From NCBI RefSeq assembly GCF_001677475.2, contig NZ_CP015229.1: a stretch of DNA of 64,000 nt, one strand, 5' to 3'. The position numbers were made by a program, and so were the translations under genes. This document shows, in pieces, positions 13,118 through 18,030 of this stretch (its first letter is position 1; each line of letters starts with the position of its first letter). This stretch comes from Escherichia coli. Lineage in GTDB: Bacteria; Pseudomonadota; Gammaproteobacteria; Enterobacterales; Enterobacteriaceae. Below the pieces are notes generated by a model. That model was not told where the DNA came from, did no database searches, and saw only the letters and a list, made by a program, of their open reading frames with translations.

Positions 13118-13222
13118 CTAGCCTGTCCGTTCAATAAGCAGAACGGACAAAACCAGCACAACAGCAATGGCAAAAAACGATGACGTGATAATCAGTGTCT
13201 CGACGAACATTTGATCGTTCAT
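13118..13222 (-). CDS. yoaI: Small membrane protein YoaI (34 aa)
   Basis: Manual translation of minus strand: [34 protein letters not shown]; not in the ORF track (below length cutoff). Confidence 0.6.
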
Positions 13223-13391
13223 AGCATGCCCCCGGGAGATAGCTGTTTTCACGTTATTGTTAGCGTGCACAAATGGCAGTTTGATGACAGTTCGCCTGAT
13301 TTTTTATGCAAAAAACGTAAAGATTTTCTACTTCCTTCCTGCAGCAAGCGTAAAGTAAGCAGGCTTATTATTTTTTGGCAAGGAAACCACG

Positions 13392-13838
13392 ATGTTTGAT
13401 GTCACTTTGCTGATCCTGCTCGGGTTAGCTGCGCTGGGCTTTATCAGTCATAACACCACTGTCGCCGTTTCAATTCTGGTGTTGATAATTGTCCGCGTCA
13501 CACCGTTAAGCACCTTTTTCCCGTGGATTGAAAAACAGGGGCTAAGTATCGGGATAATCATTCTGACGATTGGCGTTATGGCCCCCATCGCCAGCGGGAC
13601 GCTACCGCCCTCAACCCTGATTCACTCGTTTCTGAACTGGAAATCACTGGTGGCAATTGCAGTAGGCGTTATTGTCTCCTGGCTGGGTGGACGCGGCGTG
13701 ACGTTAATGGGCAGCCAGCCGCAACTGGTTGCTGGGCTGCTGGTGGGCACTGTTTTAGGCGTAGCGCTGTTTCGCGGCGTACCGGTTGGCCCGCTTATTG
13801 CCGCGGGTCTGGTTTCGCTGATTGTGGGGAAACAGTAG
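13392..13838 (+). CDS. yeaL: UPF0756 inner-membrane protein YeaL
   Basis: ORF 13392..13838, 148 aa, hydrophobic. Confidence 0.8.
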
Positions 13839-14616
13839 TTAATCCCGCAATATATCGGCCTGGCGTTTGCCCCAGGCCTTTCTTAAACATAGTAATAAAG
13901 GCCGTTGTTGAATCATACCCCAGCGTATGAGCAACTTTCTGTACAGTATCGCCTTTCACTAATCCCTGAAGCGCCATAATCAGCTGTAACTGCTGACGCC
14001 ACTGGCGAAAACTCAACCCCGTCTCTTTTACTATCAGTCGGGCAAGATTGCGTTCACTCATCGCAAAAAAGCCAGCCCATTGCCCCAATGACCCCCACTC
14101 GACGGGCCCTTTCGCCATCATCTCCACCATCGTGCGGATTTTAGGATGAGAAGAAACGGGCAGGTGCAGCTGTTGTTGTGGCTGCTGAGGGAGTTCATCA
14201 AACAGGACCTGAATTAATCTGCGGGTCATCGGCTCAGCACGCTGAGTCGTCGTCCTGTTTGCCAGGGTTAAAATTAATTCCCGGCATAAGGGCGATATTT
14301 TCAATGTGCAACATGTTGTCGGCATTGTCACTGCGCTGGGTTCGATAAACAGAAAACAGAGTTCAGCGTTAGATGTCACTTGATTGCTATGTTCCACCCC
14401 GCCCGGTATCCAAACCGCATATTGCGGCGGCACCATCCACAAAGCATTTTCCACCGTACAGGTAATTGCACCATGTAGCGCCAGTATCAGCTGTCCTTTG
14501 CGGTGCTGATGTACAGGACTGGTTAACTCATCCGTTCCGGCGTGAATACAAAATGCGACCGCGGCTTCATGGTGTCGGTCGGGTTCATAGCCATTGAGAT
14601 TCAACCTGTGCATCAT
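13795..14616 (-). CDS. yeaM: AraC-family transcriptional regulator YeaM
   Basis: ORF 13795..14616, 273 aa; C-terminal AraC HTH; 3' end overlaps yeaL convergently by 44 bp. Confidence 0.8.
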
Positions 14617-14712
14617 TTTGTCCGAACTTAGCGATAAGTTGTCATTTTAGCTTGATTCAACATAACAATAAAAACGGTAAGGTACAGCCTCGTTTGTAAC
14701 AATGAGAAGCAT

Positions 14713-15894
14713 ATGACCTGTTCAACTTCATTAAGCGGCAAAAACAGGATTGTCCTTATCGCTGGCATTCTGATGATTGCCACTACATTACGCGTCACCT
14801 TCACCGGCGCAGCACCGTTACTGGATACGATTCGTTCCGCTTACTCGCTGACGACTGCGCAAATCGGCTTATTGACCACCCTGCCATTATTGGCCTTTGC
14901 GCTAATCTCACCTTTGGCCGCCCCGGTGGCGCGACGTTTTGGTATGGAACGTAGCCTGTTTGCCGCGTTACTTTTGATCTGTGCAGGTATCGCAATTCGT
15001 TCTCTCCCTTCGCCTTACTTATTATTTGGCGGTACAGCGGTCATTGGCGGTGGGATTGCATTAGGCAATGTCTTACTGCCAGGATTAATTAAACGCGATT
15101 TCCCTCATTCCGTCGCCAGACTTACCGGCGCATATTCCCTGACAATGGGAGCTGCAGCGGCACTGGGATCGGCTATGGTCGTGCCGCTGGCTTTGAACGG
15201 TTTTGGCTGGCAAGGCTCGTTGCTCATGCTGATGTGTTTTCCTCTGCTGGCTCTTTTTTTATGGTTGCCACAGTGGCGAAGCCAACAACATGTAAATTTG
15301 AGTACTTCACGCGCCTTACATACTCGGGGTATCTGGCGTTCGCCGCTTGCCTGGCAGGTCACATTGTTTCTTGGGATCAACTCACTGATCTATTACGTGA
15401 TTATTGGCTGGCTTCCGGCGATCCTCATCAGTCACGGCTATAGCGAAGCACAGGCGGGTTCATTGCATGGTTTGCTGCAACTAGCCACAGCAGCTCCCGG
15501 TTTGCTGATCCCACTTTTCTTACATCATGTGAAAGATCAGCGTGGTATTGCAGCGTTCGTTGCCTTGATGTGCGCAGTGGGCGCGGTTGGGTTCTGCTTT
15601 ATGCCAGCGCACGCGATCACCTGGACTCTGCTTTTCGGTTTTGGTTCCGGCGCAACGATGATACTGGGGTTGACGTTCATTGGTCTTCGGGCAAGTTCTG
15701 CGCATCAGGCGGCGGCACTCTCGGGGATGGCACAATCCGTCGGGTATTTGCTGGCAGCCTGTGGGCCGCCGCTAATGGGTAAAATACACGATGCTAACGG
15801 TAACTGGTCTGTACCACTGATGGGTGTTGCCATACTTTCACTACTGATGGCGATTTTCGGACTTTGCGCCGGGAGAGACAAAGAAATTCGCTAG
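14713..15894 (+). CDS. yeaN: MFS transporter YeaN (NimT-like)
   Basis: ORF 14713..15894, 393 aa, 12-TM-like hydrophobic profile. Confidence 0.8.
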   Translation: MTCSTSLSGKNRIVLIAGILMIATTLRVTFTGAAPLLDTIRSAYSLTTAQIGLLTTLPLLAFALISPLAAPVARRFGMERSLFAALLLICAGIAIRSLPSPYLLFGGTAVIGGGIALGNVLLPGLIKRDFPHSVARLTGAYSLTMGAAAALGSAMVVPLALNGFGWQGSLLMLMCFPLLALFLWLPQWRSQQHVNLSTSRALHTRGIWRSPLAWQVTLFLGINSLIYYVIIGWLPAILISHGYSEAQAGSLHGLLQLATAAPGLLIPLFLHHVKDQRGIAAFVALMCAVGAVGFCFMPAHAITWTLLFGFGSGATMILGLTFIGLRASSAHQAAALSGMAQSVGYLLAACGPPLMGKIHDANGNWSVPLMGVAILSLLMAIFGLCAGRDKEIR

Positions 15895-15948
15895 TATCCG
15901 GTGCTATAGTGACGTGACAAATCATGCGTGAAAGGGAGAACAAACACG

Positions 15949-16296
15949 ATGAATATTCAGTGCAAACGCGTTTATGATCCGGCTGAACAGAGCGATGGTT
16001 ATCGCGTACTGGTCGACCGCCTCTGGCCGCGCGGTATCAAAAAAACCGATTTAGCCCTTGATGAGTGGGATAAAGAAATCACGCCGTCAACGGAACTGCG
16101 CAAAGCCTTTCACGGCGAAGTCGTCGATTTTGCAACCTTTCGCGAGCAATATCTTGCAGAACTGGCGCAACACGAGCAAGAAGGAAAGCGGCTGGCGGAC
16201 ATCGCCAAAAAACAGCCGCTGACCCTGCTCTACTCAGCAAAAAACACCACGCAGAACCATGCGCTGGTGCTGGCCGACTGGCTACGTAGCTTGTGA
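15949..16296 (+). CDS. yeaO: DUF488 protein YeaO
   Basis: ORF 15928..16296; start set at ATG 15949 (MNIQCKRVYD), 115 aa. Confidence 0.8.
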   Translation: MNIQCKRVYDPAEQSDGYRVLVDRLWPRGIKKTDLALDEWDKEITPSTELRKAFHGEVVDFATFREQYLAELAQHEQEGKRLADIAKKQPLTLLYSAKNTTQNHALVLADWLRSL

Positions 16297-16572: not shown

Positions 16573-16754
16573 TTATTGATCTCACATATTTATCTACGCT
16601 TAGAGTATCGCGGTATCGTTTTGTTTTGCAGCACTATTTTTATTACATTCACTCAAATCATATTACGCCTTGTTTCATCTTTGTTGATGATGTTTTATCA
16701 TGCCTGCAAAGATTAAATAATCAGCATTTACCCGCCGTATCCTGGAGTTGTTTC

Positions 16755-17764
16755 GTGTCAGATCAGATTATCGCCCGCGTCTCGCAATCCCTTGCCAAAG
16801 AACAGTCACTGGAAAGTCTGGTCCGACAGCTTCTGGAGATGCTGGAAATGGTCACTGATATGGAATCAACCTACCTGACCAAAGTGGATGTCGAAGCGCG
16901 CCTGCAGCATATTATGTTTGCCCGTAACAGCCAGAAAATGCACATCCCGGAGAATTTTACCGTCTCGTGGGATTACTCGTTATGCAAACGCGCCATTGAT
17001 GAAAACTGCTTTTTCAGCGATGAAGTCCCTGACCGTTGGGGCGACTGTATTGCGGCACGCAATCTTGGCATCACCACATTTCTGAGCACGCCAATTCACT
17101 TACCGGATGGATCATTCTATGGCACGCTTTGCGCCGCCAGTGGAGTGAACGCGCGGAACAGGTTTTACAGTTATTCGCCGGACTGATTGCACAATATATT
17201 CAAAAAGAGGCGCTGGTAGAACAGCTGCGCGAAGCCAATGCCGCGCTGATAGCGCAATCGTATACCGACTCGTTAACCGGGTTGCCGAATCGGCGGGCGA
17301 TTTTTGAAAATCTGACGACGCTGTTTTCCCTCGCCCGGCATCTTAACCATAAGATAATGATCGCGTTTATCGACCTGGATAACTTCAAATTAATCAACGA
17401 TCGTTTTGGTCATAATAGTGGCGATCTGTTTCTCATTCAGGTTGGCGAGCGCCTTAATACGCTCCAGCAAAATGGCGAAGTTATTGGTCGTCTCGGCGGT
17501 GATGAGTTTTTGGTTGTTTCACTAAACAACGAGAATGCGGATATTTCGTCGCTGCGAGAACGTATTCAACAGAAAATACGTGGAGAATATCACTTAGGTG
17601 ATGTTGATTTGTATTATCCCGGTGCCAGTCTTGGCATAGTAGAAGTCGATCCTGAAACAACCGATGCAGACAGTGCCCTGCATGCTGCCGATATCGCGAT
17701 GTATCAGGAGAAAAAACACAAACAGAAAACACCTTTTGTCGCGCATCCAGCGCTACATTCCTGA
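16755..17764 (+). pseudogene. dgcP: dgcP (yeaP) GAF-GGDEF diguanylate cyclase, disrupted: GAF part and GGDEF part lie in different frames
   Basis: N-terminal fragment from GTG 16755 stops at 17186; GGDEF part (RLGGDEF) continues in ORF 17036..17764; frame switch near 17150. Confidence 0.6.
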
Positions 17765-17796
17765 GGCGTATTCACATCCTTTTGATTGGTGATAAC

Positions 17797-17895
17797 ATGC
17801 GAATCGGTATTATTTTTCCGGTTGTAATCTTCATTACAGCGGTCGTATTTTTAGCATGGTTTTTTATTGGCGGCTATGCTGCCCCGGGAGCATAA
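17797..17895 (+). CDS. yoaK: Small membrane protein YoaK (32 aa)
   Basis: Manual translation: MRIGIIFPVVIFITAVVFLAWFFIGGYAAPGA. Confidence 0.55.
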   Translation: MRIGIIFPVVIFITAVVFLAWFFIGGYAAPGA

Positions 17896-17897
17896 AG

Positions 17898-17972
17898 ATG
17901 AAAAAAACAACGATTATTATGATGGGTGTGGCGATTATTGTCGTACTCGGCACTGAGTTGGGATGGTGGTAA
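17898..17972 (+). CDS. yoaJ: Small membrane protein YoaJ (24 aa)
   Basis: Manual translation: MKKTTIIMMGVAIIVVLGTELGWW; starts 2 nt after yoaK stop. Confidence 0.55.
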   Translation: MKKTTIIMMGVAIIVVLGTELGWW

Positions 17973-18030
17973 CGTCACCTCTAAAAAATAGCAAAGGCTG
18001 CCTGTGTGCAGCCTTTGTGCAATTTACGCG

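What the first reader, a model, noticed from the sequence alone, without database searches (positions are those of the whole stretch)
13118..18000. Several very small membrane-protein genes missed by the length-filtered ORF track
yoaI (34 aa), yoaK (32 aa) and yoaJ (24 aa) here, plus yobF (47 aa, 49108-49251), mgrB (47 aa, 50282-50425) and yoaH (59 aa, 33794-33973) elsewhere, were only found by manual translation. yoaK and yoaJ are separated by 2 nt, suggesting coupled translation of two single-TM peptides. Other sub-60-aa genes may remain unrecognised in the intergenic regions.
Basis: partly seen in the sequence, partly recalled or inferred. Interest (0 to 1): 0.2.

Follow-up and report, generated by a model that had tools for sequence, protein, structure and literature searches.

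The report
Known E. coli small membrane-protein genes
The short reading frames are real, conserved and already annotated E. coli small-protein genes (yoaI, yoaK, yoaJ, plus yobF, mgrB, yoaH), missed only because they fall under a 60-codon length filter, so the finding is correct but ordinary.

Summary
yoaI (13118-13222, -), yoaK (17797-17895, +) and yoaJ (17898-17972, +) are intact and identical in protein sequence to E. coli K-12. yoaK and yoaJ are separated by exactly 2 nt. mgrB and yoaH sit at the stated coordinates; yobF is one base off (49107-49250). All are annotated in RefSeq and score above the curated cut-offs of their own NCBIfam or Pfam models.

Across about 80 Enterobacteriaceae species the three frames are under purifying selection (pN/pS 0.13-0.27, against more than 1 in the other frames). 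The yoaK-yoaJ junction always stays within -4 to +3 nt, although its exact form changes between genera. yoaJ keeps a strong Shine-Dalgarno sequence inside the last yoaK codons. This supports, but does not prove, coupled translation.

The literature already covers the function of YoaI (PhoB-induced activator of EnvZ), the topology of YoaJ, and cleavage of YoaJ and YoaK by RseP. A cross-genus scan of intergenic ORFs between 10.8 and 25 kb found no further conserved small gene.

Verdict: already known, low interest. Side observations are a frameshifted dgcP upstream of yoaK, an ISEc10 insertion upstream of mntP, and RNA-like conservation over yobF.

The parts
13118..13222 (-). yoaI, a 34-aa single-pass membrane protein. 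Its stop abuts the stop of convergent yeaK (13117).
   Evidence: identical to K-12 b1788. NCBIfam NF041475 scores 79.8 bits against a cut-off of 45. pN/pS is 0.27 in frame and above 1 in the other frames.
13272..13289 (-). PhoB binding site (Pho box) TGTCATCAAACTGCCATT, 50 nt upstream of the yoaI ATG.
   Evidence: Sequence. It is the same 18-mer listed as the ChIP-seq PhoB site at K-12 position 1874218 in PMC10294691. A similar box lies 45-58 nt upstream in 23 of 28 loci from 5 genera.
16755..17764 (+). dgcP (yeaP), here a pseudogene. A 16-bp deletion at about 17134 splits it into ORFs 16626-17186 and 17036-17764. It is the first gene of the dgcP-yoaK-yoaJ transcription unit.
   Evidence: The operon was called from RNA-seq in PMC4620388.
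17797..17895 (+). yoaK, a 32-aa single-pass membrane protein with a weak SD (GGTGA).
   Evidence: NCBIfam NF033821 scores 69.1 bits against a cut-off of 32. pN/pS is 0.13. SD duplex energy is -2.8 kcal/mol.
17886..17890 (+). Shine-Dalgarno GGGAG for yoaJ, embedded in the Pro-Gly-Ala codons at the end of yoaK, 7 nt before the yoaJ ATG.
   Evidence: for the sequence.: -6.6 kcal/mol here, mean -7.1 over 80 loci, against a background mean of -2.1.
17896..17897 (+). 2-nt spacer (AG) between the yoaK stop TAA and the yoaJ ATG.
   Evidence: Junction types across genera are tabulated.
17898..17972 (+). yoaJ, a 24-aa single-pass (N-in/C-out) membrane protein ending in GWW.
   Evidence: NCBIfam NF011343 scores 60.4 bits against a cut-off of 54. 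It is present in all 80 loci. pN/pS is 0.23. Topology is as cited in PMC4597795.
17992..18017 (.). GC-rich hairpin between the convergent genes yoaJ and yeaQ. It is followed by a T-run on the yeaQ strand and is a likely bidirectional terminator.
33794..33973 (-). yoaH, 59 aa, UPF0181 family; hydrophilic, not a membrane protein.
40815..40973 (-). yoaL, 52 aa; an upstream ORF that overlaps the yoaE start by 13 nt.
   Evidence: Pfam PF22867 scores 138 bits. A stop codon in yoaL lowers yoaE-lacZ expression (bioRxiv 10.1101/511675).
49107..49250 (-). yobF, 47 aa, DUF2527, in the leader of cspC.
50282..50425 (-). mgrB, 47 aa, GTG start; membrane peptide that inhibits PhoQ.

Best explanation
These are the known E. 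coli small-protein genes yoaI, yoaK and yoaJ, with yobF, mgrB, yoaH and the missed yoaL elsewhere in the window. YoaI is a 34-aa inner-membrane peptide. It is transcribed from a PhoB-activated promoter (the Pho box is present here) and, according to published work, binds and stimulates the sensor kinase EnvZ through its conserved Glu31. yoaK and yoaJ are the last two genes of the dgcP-yoaK-yoaJ transcript. Each encodes one transmembrane helix with positive charges at the N-terminus (N-in/C-out). I infer that ribosomes finishing yoaK unmask or re-use the strong yoaJ ribosome-binding site, which lies inside the last yoaK codons, so the two peptides are made together. I also infer that they act in the membrane as small partners or modulators of a larger protein, possibly as a pair. 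What is shown: the genes, their conservation, the conserved junction and SD, and the published detection and topology. What is inferred: the coupling itself and any joint function.
For: Identity: the proteins are identical to K-12 and the genes are annotated in K-12 and PGAP genomes. Family HMM scores are above the curated cut-offs.

Coding selection: pN/pS is 0.23 for yoaJ, 0.13 for yoaK and 0.27 for yoaI, against 1.1-3.2 in the alternative frames.

YoaI: S26, V27 and E31 are kept in 28 of 29 sequences and the Pho box in 23 of 28 loci. [quoted passage not shown] The EnvZ two-hybrid result, the omrB reporter and the E31A/Q mutants are in bioRxiv 10.1101/2024.09.13.612970.

Coupling: among the ~59 species that carry both genes, the junctions are 24 loci with 0 nt, 23 with +2, 2 with +3, 7 with -1 and 3 with -4 nt. 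The yoaJ SD averages -7.1 kcal/mol against a background of -2.1. RNA-seq calls dgcP-yoaK-yoaJ as one operon (PMC4620388).

Single TM helices: the best 17-residue hydropathy windows score 2.3-3.0. YoaJ is integral to the membrane with type II topology (PMC4597795). Tagged YoaK has been detected. Both are cleaved by RseP in vitro (PMC10470546).
Against: Coupling has not been tested. yoaJ has its own strong SD and stands alone, with a GTG start, in about 13 species that lack yoaK, so it can initiate independently. The predicted mRNA fold around the junction is not unusually stable (z = -1.7) and gives no clear sequestration of the yoaJ start. No function is known for YoaK or YoaJ. The RseP results differ between tags (class II substrates). 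In this particular window dgcP is frameshifted upstream, which could lower yoaK-yoaJ expression by polarity. No convincing internal promoter was found: 2 promoter-like hits against 3.1 expected by chance.
Confidence: 0.9

Rival explanations
1. yoaK and yoaJ are the two halves of one ancestral two-helix membrane protein that was split by a stop codon or frameshift. Alternatively, they are still made partly as one 57-aa protein by readthrough.
For: In 24 species (Enterobacter, Lelliottia, Leclercia, Huaxiibacter) the two ORFs are in the same frame, separated only by a stop codon (TAA-ATG). The protein database holds 57-aa YoaK-YoaJ fusions with one-residue linkers (K, Y, Q, E), each a single substitution away from a stop codon.
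Against: Each fusion is a singleton (one sequence, one contig). The E. coli-type fusions need two homopolymer indels, which is typical of sequencing error. No species representative among the 80 has a fused gene; the one exception is a C. amalonaticus assembly with a frameshifted yoaK. The frame relation differs between genera (0, +2, +3, -1, -4), which does not fit a single protein. Both peptides carry their positive charges at the N-terminus (MR..., MKK...), so both prefer N-in. A one-residue linker cannot connect two parallel helices. YoaJ exists alone in about 13 species.
Confidence: 0.04
2. The short ORFs are chance frames, and the conservation reflects non-coding function: promoter, terminator or RNA elements of the neighbouring genes.
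For: There are 115 ORFs of at least 20 aa in 6 kb. Alternative-frame and antisense ORFs over the same DNA also give cross-genus tblastn hits. For yobF, conservation really does look RNA-like: variable sites fall 5/5/6 by codon position, and the frame is broken in some genera.
Against: For yoaI, yoaK and yoaJ, substitutions concentrate at synonymous sites in the annotated frame only (pN/pS 0.13-0.27 against more than 1). Start codon, stop codon and length are kept across genera. Published tagging, fractionation and mutant data show that the proteins exist.
Confidence: 0.02
3. yoaK and yoaJ are independently translated neighbours. The tight spacing reflects only genome compaction, and they have unrelated functions.
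For: yoaJ has a strong SD of its own. yoaJ occurs without yoaK in about 13 species. RseP handles the two peptides differently in vivo.
Against: Wherever yoaK exists it is immediately upstream of yoaJ: 59 of 59 species, with junctions from -4 to +3 nt in five different arrangements. The pair is retained together even where dgcP has been deleted, as in Salmonella arizonae and diarizonae and in the C. amalonaticus and sedlakii group.
Confidence: 0.25

Closest known systems
YoaI (E. coli b1788; NCBIfam NF041475; Pfam PF23689 'YldA')
   Same: The 34-aa sequence is identical. S26, V27 and E31 are present. The Pho box is identical to the mapped PhoB site. The position is the same, convergent with yeaK and divergent from yeaL.
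   Different: Nothing differs in the sequence. Function was not tested here.
YoaK / YoaJ (E. coli b4676 / b4675; NCBIfam NF033821 and NF011343), small membrane proteins of the Hemm/Storz set
   Same: The proteins are identical. The 2-nt spacing and the position between dgcP and yeaQ are the same.
   Different: In this window the upstream operon gene dgcP carries a 16-bp frameshifting deletion. yoaJ has one synonymous difference from strain ES5 at 17915.
MgrB, and other small-peptide modulators of sensor kinases such as MzrA-EnvZ
   Same: mgrB in the window is identical to K-12. YoaI works like these: a single-pass peptide that binds a histidine kinase.
   Different: MgrB inhibits PhoQ through its periplasmic part. 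YoaI activates EnvZ through a cytoplasmic glutamate. YoaK and YoaJ have no known target.
Translationally coupled adjacent genes (termination-reinitiation at overlaps such as ATGA and TAATG)
   Same: Same strand, with the stop and start within -4 to +3 nt. The ATGA and TAATG overlap forms are seen in Pseudocitrobacter, Klebsiella and Trabulsiella. The SD lies inside the upstream coding sequence.
   Different: Dependence of yoaJ translation on yoaK has never been measured, and yoaJ can stand alone.
YoaL-yoaE upstream ORF
   Same: The 52-aa ORF is identical and overlaps the yoaE start, as in K-12.
   Different: It is not a membrane-peptide gene in the same sense. It acts in cis on yoaE translation.

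Membership tests
YoaI small membrane protein (NF041475) | Full-length match to the equivalog HMM above the curated cut-off | tested here: met
   79.8 bits against a cut-off of 45, aligned 1-34 of 34.
YoaI small membrane protein (NF041475) | Invariant Ser26, Val27 and Glu31, and one hydrophobic helix | tested here: met
   The residues are present and conserved in 28 of 29 orthologues. The hydropathy window 14-30 scores 2.81.
YoaI small membrane protein (NF041475) | PhoB-dependent promoter (Pho box upstream) | tested here: met
   TGTCATCAAACTGCCATT at 13272-13289 is identical to the ChIP-seq site. Regulation itself was not tested.
YoaI small membrane protein (NF041475) | Binds and activates EnvZ | not testable with these tools
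   Literature only.
YoaK family small membrane protein (NF033821 / PF28021) | Match to the equivalog HMM above cut-off; single TM helix | tested here: met
   69.1 bits against a cut-off of 32. The hydropathy window scores 2.98. The local Pfam copy gave no hit, but precomputed PF28021 tags its homologues.
Protein YoaJ (NF011343) | Match to the equivalog HMM above cut-off; 24 aa ending in GWW | tested here: met
   60.4 bits against a cut-off of 54. The GWW terminus is present in all 80 species.
Protein YoaJ (NF011343) | Integral inner-membrane protein with N-in/C-out topology | not testable with these tools
   Reported in PMC4597795, citing Fontaine 2011. Here only the hydropathy and the N-terminal KK are seen.
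Translationally coupled gene pair | Same strand and transcript, with stop and start within a few nucleotides, conserved across taxa | tested here: met
   2 nt here. Junctions of -4, -1, 0, +2 and +3 nt in 59 species that carry both genes. Operon call in PMC4620388.
Translationally coupled gene pair | Downstream translation depends on upstream translation | not testable with these tools
   Needs reporter fusions with a premature stop in yoaK.
MgrB (NF007635 / PF13998) | HMM match above cut-off | tested here: met
   89.9 bits against 40, and 66.3 bits against 27.
YobF (DUF2527, PF10736) | HMM match above cut-off | tested here: met
   105 bits against 25. The frame is broken in 3 of 4 other lineages near the 3' end.
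YoaH (UPF0181, PF03701 / NF003476) | HMM match above cut-off | tested here: met
   114.2 bits against 72, and 100.9 bits against 23.5.
YoaH (UPF0181, PF03701 / NF003476) | Membrane protein, as the finding's title implies | tested here: not met
   GRAVY is -0.47 and there is no hydrophobic window.
YoaL (PF22867) | HMM match above cut-off; overlaps the yoaE start | tested here: met
   138.1 bits against 27. ORF 40815-40973 against the yoaE start at 40827.

The most novel reading that the evidence does not exclude
YoaK and YoaJ may form a conserved two-peptide module. YoaJ would be the widespread core: it is present in all 80 species sampled, sometimes alone. YoaK would be an accessory that is always placed immediately upstream, with a junction that has been remodelled at least five ways (-4, -1, 0, +2, +3 nt) yet never loosened. 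That would imply selection for co-translation and co-insertion in fixed stoichiometry, perhaps as a heteromeric membrane complex linked to the adjacent diguanylate cyclase DgcP.
Probability: 0.3. Interest if true: 0.3.

Novelty: already known. Interest (0 to 1): 0.08.

Why it matters
For the genome scan, this shows that a 60-aa ORF filter hides seven annotated genes in 64 kb. Two of them have known regulatory roles (MgrB on PhoQ, YoaI on EnvZ). That is a reminder about method, not a discovery. The one modestly useful addition is the comparative picture of the yoaK-yoaJ junction. It turns 'coupled translation of two peptides' into a concrete hypothesis that is cheap to test, for two proteins whose function is still unknown.

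Tried and rejected
I searched a YoaI+YoaK+YoaJ concatenate instead. That database seems to hold only proteins of about 50 aa or more, so it returned mainly aberrant fusions and extensions. I rejected these as evidence for a natural fusion protein.

2. A tblastn conservation scan over all 322 small ORFs between 10.8 and 25 kb was uninformative, because alternative frames of conserved genes also score. Restricted to the 60 mostly intergenic ORFs, only yoaI, yoaK, yoaJ and yoaG, plus frames overlapping them, were conserved across genera. The hydrophobic 46-aa TTG ORF at 16576-16716 is not conserved.

3. I looked for a decayed yoaK upstream of yoaJ in the genera that lack yoaK. Local alignments did not beat shuffled controls, so gain and loss of yoaK cannot be told apart.

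4. RNA folding of the yoaK-yoaJ region gave z = -1.7 and no convincing occlusion of the yoaJ start.

5. The promoter scan found no credible yoaK-specific promoter: 2 hits against 3.1 expected.

6. The original discovery papers (Hemm 2008 and 2010, Fontaine 2011, the EcoSal review) are not held in the library. They are cited only through papers that cite them.

7. No supplementary Ribo-RET tables were available, so I could not check published lists of novel small ORFs for this interval.

8. I suspected that the Mn riboswitch of mntP had been destroyed by the IS. This was rejected: it is intact and scores the same, just below threshold, as in K-12.

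
Full report
**What the window is.** The 5.1 kb around the finding matches 5,420 of 5,426 complete E. coli genomes at 95-99% identity. Gene order is dgcJ-yeaK-yoaI-yeaL-nimR-nimT-yeaO-yoaF-dgcP-yoaK-yoaJ-yeaQ. The whole window is syntenic with K-12 MG1655 from about 1.861 to 1.922 Mb. A 7.2-kb stretch is 100% identical to an assembly of public run SRR17945688. It has no mismatch to draft genome GCA_019141875.1 apart from one 16-bp indel. The window is therefore an E. coli lineage that is not among the complete RefSeq genomes.

**Checking the observation.**
- yoaI is at 13118-13222 on the minus strand and encodes 34 aa.
- yoaK is at 17797-17895 and encodes 32 aa.
- yoaJ is at 17898-17972 and encodes 24 aa.
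- All three proteins are identical to K-12.
- The yoaK TAA ends at 17895 and the yoaJ ATG starts at 17898, so the spacer is the 2 nt 'AG', as stated.
- mgrB (50282-50425, GTG start) and yoaH (33794-33973) are at the stated coordinates.
- The yobF coordinates are off by one. The stated 49108-49251 translates to a frame full of stops. The real ORF is 49107-49250.

Short ORFs are abundant by chance: this 6 kb holds 115 ORFs of at least 20 aa. Existence of the frames alone is therefore not evidence, and the tests below are what count.

**Family membership.** Each peptide matches its own curated model above the cut-off.

| Peptide | Model | Score (bits) | Cut-off (bits) |
|---|---|---|---|
| YoaI | NF041475 | 79.8 | 45 |
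| YoaK | NF033821 | 69.1 | 32 |
| YoaJ | NF011343 | 60.4 | 54 |
| MgrB | NF007635 | 89.9 | 40 |
| YoaH | NF003476 | 114.2 | 72 |
| YobF | PF10736 | 105 | 25 |
| YoaL | PF22867 | 138.1 | 27 |

All seven genes are annotated in K-12, and yoaI, yoaK and yoaJ also in a PGAP-annotated strain. In Prodigal-style calls on Logan and ENA contigs of the same locus, yoaI, yoaK and yoaJ are absent.

**Conservation.** One scan of species-representative genomes, seeded with an alignment of YoaK-YoaJ sequences, returned 80 loci. The genera include Escherichia, Salmonella, Citrobacter, Enterobacter, Lelliottia, Leclercia, Huaxiibacter, the Klebsiella oxytoca group, Trabulsiella, Pseudocitrobacter, Kosakonia, Phytobacter, Superficieibacter and Pseudescherichia.
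- yoaJ (24 codons, ending in GWW) is present in all 80 loci. yoaK is present in about 59.
- Pooled Nei-Gojobori pN/pS is 0.23 for yoaJ and 0.13 for yoaK in the annotated frames. The same DNA read in the other two frames gives 1.2-3.2.
- yoaI was found on the expected strand in the 28 loci whose flank reached it. Its pN/pS is 0.27, against 1.1 and 2.8 in the other frames.
- Ser26, Val27 and Glu31 of YoaI are kept in 28 of 29 sequences. A Pho box lies 45-58 nt upstream of the ATG in 23 of 28 loci.

**The yoaK-yoaJ junction.** Where both genes exist they are always adjacent, but the junction differs by lineage.

| Junction | Loci (one search count; includes the window) | Lineages |
|---|---|---|
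| TAA/TGA/TAG-ATG, 0 nt, same frame | 24 | Enterobacter, Lelliottia, Leclercia, Huaxiibacter |
| +2 nt | 23 | Escherichia, Salmonella, most Citrobacter, and this window |
| +3 nt | 2 | C. amalonaticus group |
| TAATG/TGATG, 1-nt overlap | 7 | K. oxytoca group, Trabulsiella, one Citrobacter |
| ATGA, 4-nt overlap | 3 | Pseudocitrobacter, one Klebsiella MAG |

A GGAG or GGGG Shine-Dalgarno sequence for yoaJ sits inside the conserved Pro-Gly-Ala codons that end yoaK. Its duplex energy is -6.6 kcal/mol here and averages -7.1 over 80 loci. The background mean is -2.1 and the 5th percentile is -6.1. The yoaK SD is weaker: -2.8 here, mean -4.5.

Five different solutions that all keep stop and start within four nucleotides are what a translationally coupled pair would show. 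It is still inference, for three reasons:
- yoaJ has its own SD.
- yoaJ stands alone (mostly with a GTG start) in about 13 species that lack yoaK.
- The predicted mRNA fold shows no special occlusion of the yoaJ start.

**Is it one split protein?** A search with the concatenated peptides returned many 57-aa YoaK-YoaJ fusions.
- The divergent fusions have a single linker residue (K, Y, Q or E), each one substitution away from a stop codon. One of them reads TAC where Enterobacter genomes read TAA.
- The E. coli-type fusions need two homopolymer indels.
- All are singletons.
- Both peptides carry their positive residues at the N-terminus and so prefer the same orientation, which a one-residue linker cannot satisfy.

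I therefore reject a natural fusion or split-gene reading (confidence about 0.04).

**Genomic context.** A dgcP orthologue lies directly upstream of yoaK or yoaJ in 64 of 79 loci. K-12 RNA-seq calls yeaP(dgcP)-yoaK-yoaJ as an operon (PMC4620388). The small genes persist where dgcP is gone. In Salmonella diarizonae only about 40 nt of the dgcP 3' end remains, between yoaF and yoaK. The small genes are thus selected in their own right.

**What is known about function.**
- YoaI is a confirmed member of the PhoB regulon. The ChIP-seq site TGTCATCAAACTGCCATT is present unchanged at 13272-13289, and its RNA level falls from 12,266 to 28 in a phoB deletion (PMC10294691).
- YoaI accumulates under low Mg2+. 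It is in the membrane fraction. It binds EnvZ in a two-hybrid assay and raises EnvZ-OmpR output. The E31A and E31Q mutants lose both effects (bioRxiv 10.1101/2024.09.13.612970 and PMC11429745).
- YoaJ is an integral type II membrane protein (PMC4597795).
- Tagged YoaK is detectable at low level (bioRxiv 10.1101/511675).
- Purified RseP cleaves both YoaJ and YoaK, with tag-dependent results in vivo (PMC10470546).
- YobF is membrane-associated with a His tag. Its deletion gives a growth defect specific to low Mg2+, and a start-codon mutant cannot complement that defect.
- MgrB is the PhoQ inhibitor.
- YoaH is hydrophilic (GRAVY -0.47) and is not a membrane protein, despite the finding's title.

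**Other small genes.** K-12 annotates seven genes under 60 aa in this interval. This 52-aa ORF at 40815-40973 is identical to K-12 and overlaps the yoaE start. Its translation promotes yoaE expression.

I scanned ORFs of at least 10 codons that lie mostly outside known genes.
- Between 10.8 and 25 kb, using the 70-odd non-Escherichia loci, only yoaI, yoaK, yoaJ and yoaG, plus frames overlapping them, were conserved.
- Between 43.9 and 53.5 kb, using four other lineages, conservation was limited to mgrB, yobF, the Mn riboswitch and the cspC leader, the last two in all frames.

This does not exclude lineage-specific small ORFs, ORFs nested in genes, or ORFs under 10 codons.

**Things seen on the way.**
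- dgcP is split by a 16-bp deletion at about 17134. The six best-matching complete genomes listed all carry the extra 16 bases. The deletion is present in SRR17945688 and absent from an otherwise identical draft genome.
- An ISEc10 (IS21-family) element lies at about 44673-47083 between yobD and mntP. It ends 36 nt upstream of an intact Mn riboswitch aptamer at 47119-47215, which scores 41.9 bits against 41.6 in K-12; both are just under Rfam's cut-off of 45.
- The yobF region (about 49107-49350) is almost invariant at the nucleotide level among lineages that are otherwise 74-78% identical. Its variable sites are spread 5/5/6 over the codon positions, and some lineages carry a frameshift or a stop. 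Rfam's cspA model covers 48810-49270. This points to an RNA-level constraint in the cspC leader in addition to the peptide.

**Verdict.** Everything named is already annotated and largely characterised. Novelty: already known. Interest: low.

Noticed in passing
window 16755-17764 (deletion at about 17134): dgcP (yeaP), the diguanylate cyclase gene directly upstream of yoaK, carries a 16-bp deletion relative to E. coli ES5. The deletion splits it into ORFs 16626-17186 and 17036-17764. The six best-matching complete E. coli genomes listed all carry the extra 16 bases. The same deletion is in a contig from SRR17945688, while GCA_019141875.1 is otherwise identical but intact, so the event looks recent. 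It could be polar on yoaK-yoaJ.
   Followed up: partly
window 44673-47083: An ISEc10-like IS21-family element (istA 44766-46265, istB 46262-47017) is inserted between yobD and mntP. It ends 36 nt upstream of the Mn (yybP-ykoY) riboswitch aptamer at 47119-47215. That places it roughly at the mntP promoter and displaces any upstream regulator sites. No complete E. coli genome has it at this site.
   Followed up: partly
window 49107-49350 (and Rfam hit 48810-49270, -): The yobF ORF and the 100 nt upstream are nearly invariant at the nucleotide level across five lineages that are otherwise 74-78% identical. Variable sites are spread evenly over codon positions (5/5/6). Three lineages have a 1-nt insertion near the 3' end and one has an in-frame stop. 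Rfam's cspA thermoregulator model spans the region. This suggests that the cspC leader RNA, and not only the YobF peptide, is constrained.
   Followed up: partly
window 40815-40973 (-): yoaL (52 aa, K-12 b4751), an upstream ORF that overlaps the yoaE start codon by 13 nt, is present and identical to K-12.
   Followed up: yes
P0001-P0021; L004 8001-8174; L005 5375-5548: Public protein sets contain singleton 57-aa YoaK-YoaJ fusions. They arise either from a stop-to-sense substitution at an in-frame TAA-ATG junction (Enterobacter type) or from paired homopolymer indels (E. coli type). They are likely rare mutants or sequencing errors that surface only because the true 24-aa and 32-aa genes fall under the gene callers' length limits.
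   Followed up: yes
L035 4300-7000 (also L033, L036, L039, L058): In E. whittamii the nimR-nimT pair is absent between yeaL and yeaO. In that locus and in several other Escherichia species representatives the yoaI-to-yoaJ distance is about 2.66 kb, against 4.68 kb in the window. This suggests that nimRT is a variable insert.
   Followed up: partly
L038 ~7102 (Citrobacter sedlakii); L034 7001-7189 (C. amalonaticus AUH): The yoaJ start codon is replaced by CAT in C. sedlakii, and yoaK is frameshifted in one C. amalonaticus assembly. These may be lineage-specific losses or assembly errors.
   Followed up: no
window 13117/13118: The stop codons of the convergent genes yeaK (+) and yoaI (-) abut with no intergenic base, so the 3' end or terminator of each transcript must lie inside the other gene.
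   Followed up: no
window 27259-27344 (-): Rfam finds the sRNA SroD (115 bits). No small ORF was examined there.
   Followed up: no
L060, L063, L070, L073 (about 60-100 nt upstream of yoaJ): In the genera that lack yoaK (Kosakonia, Phytobacter), an AT-rich stretch between dgcP and yoaJ is conserved. It reads as '...EKNLIFFYLLYN...' in the yoaJ frame. It shows no significant similarity to yoaK and its role is unknown; it could be a promoter.
   Followed up: partly
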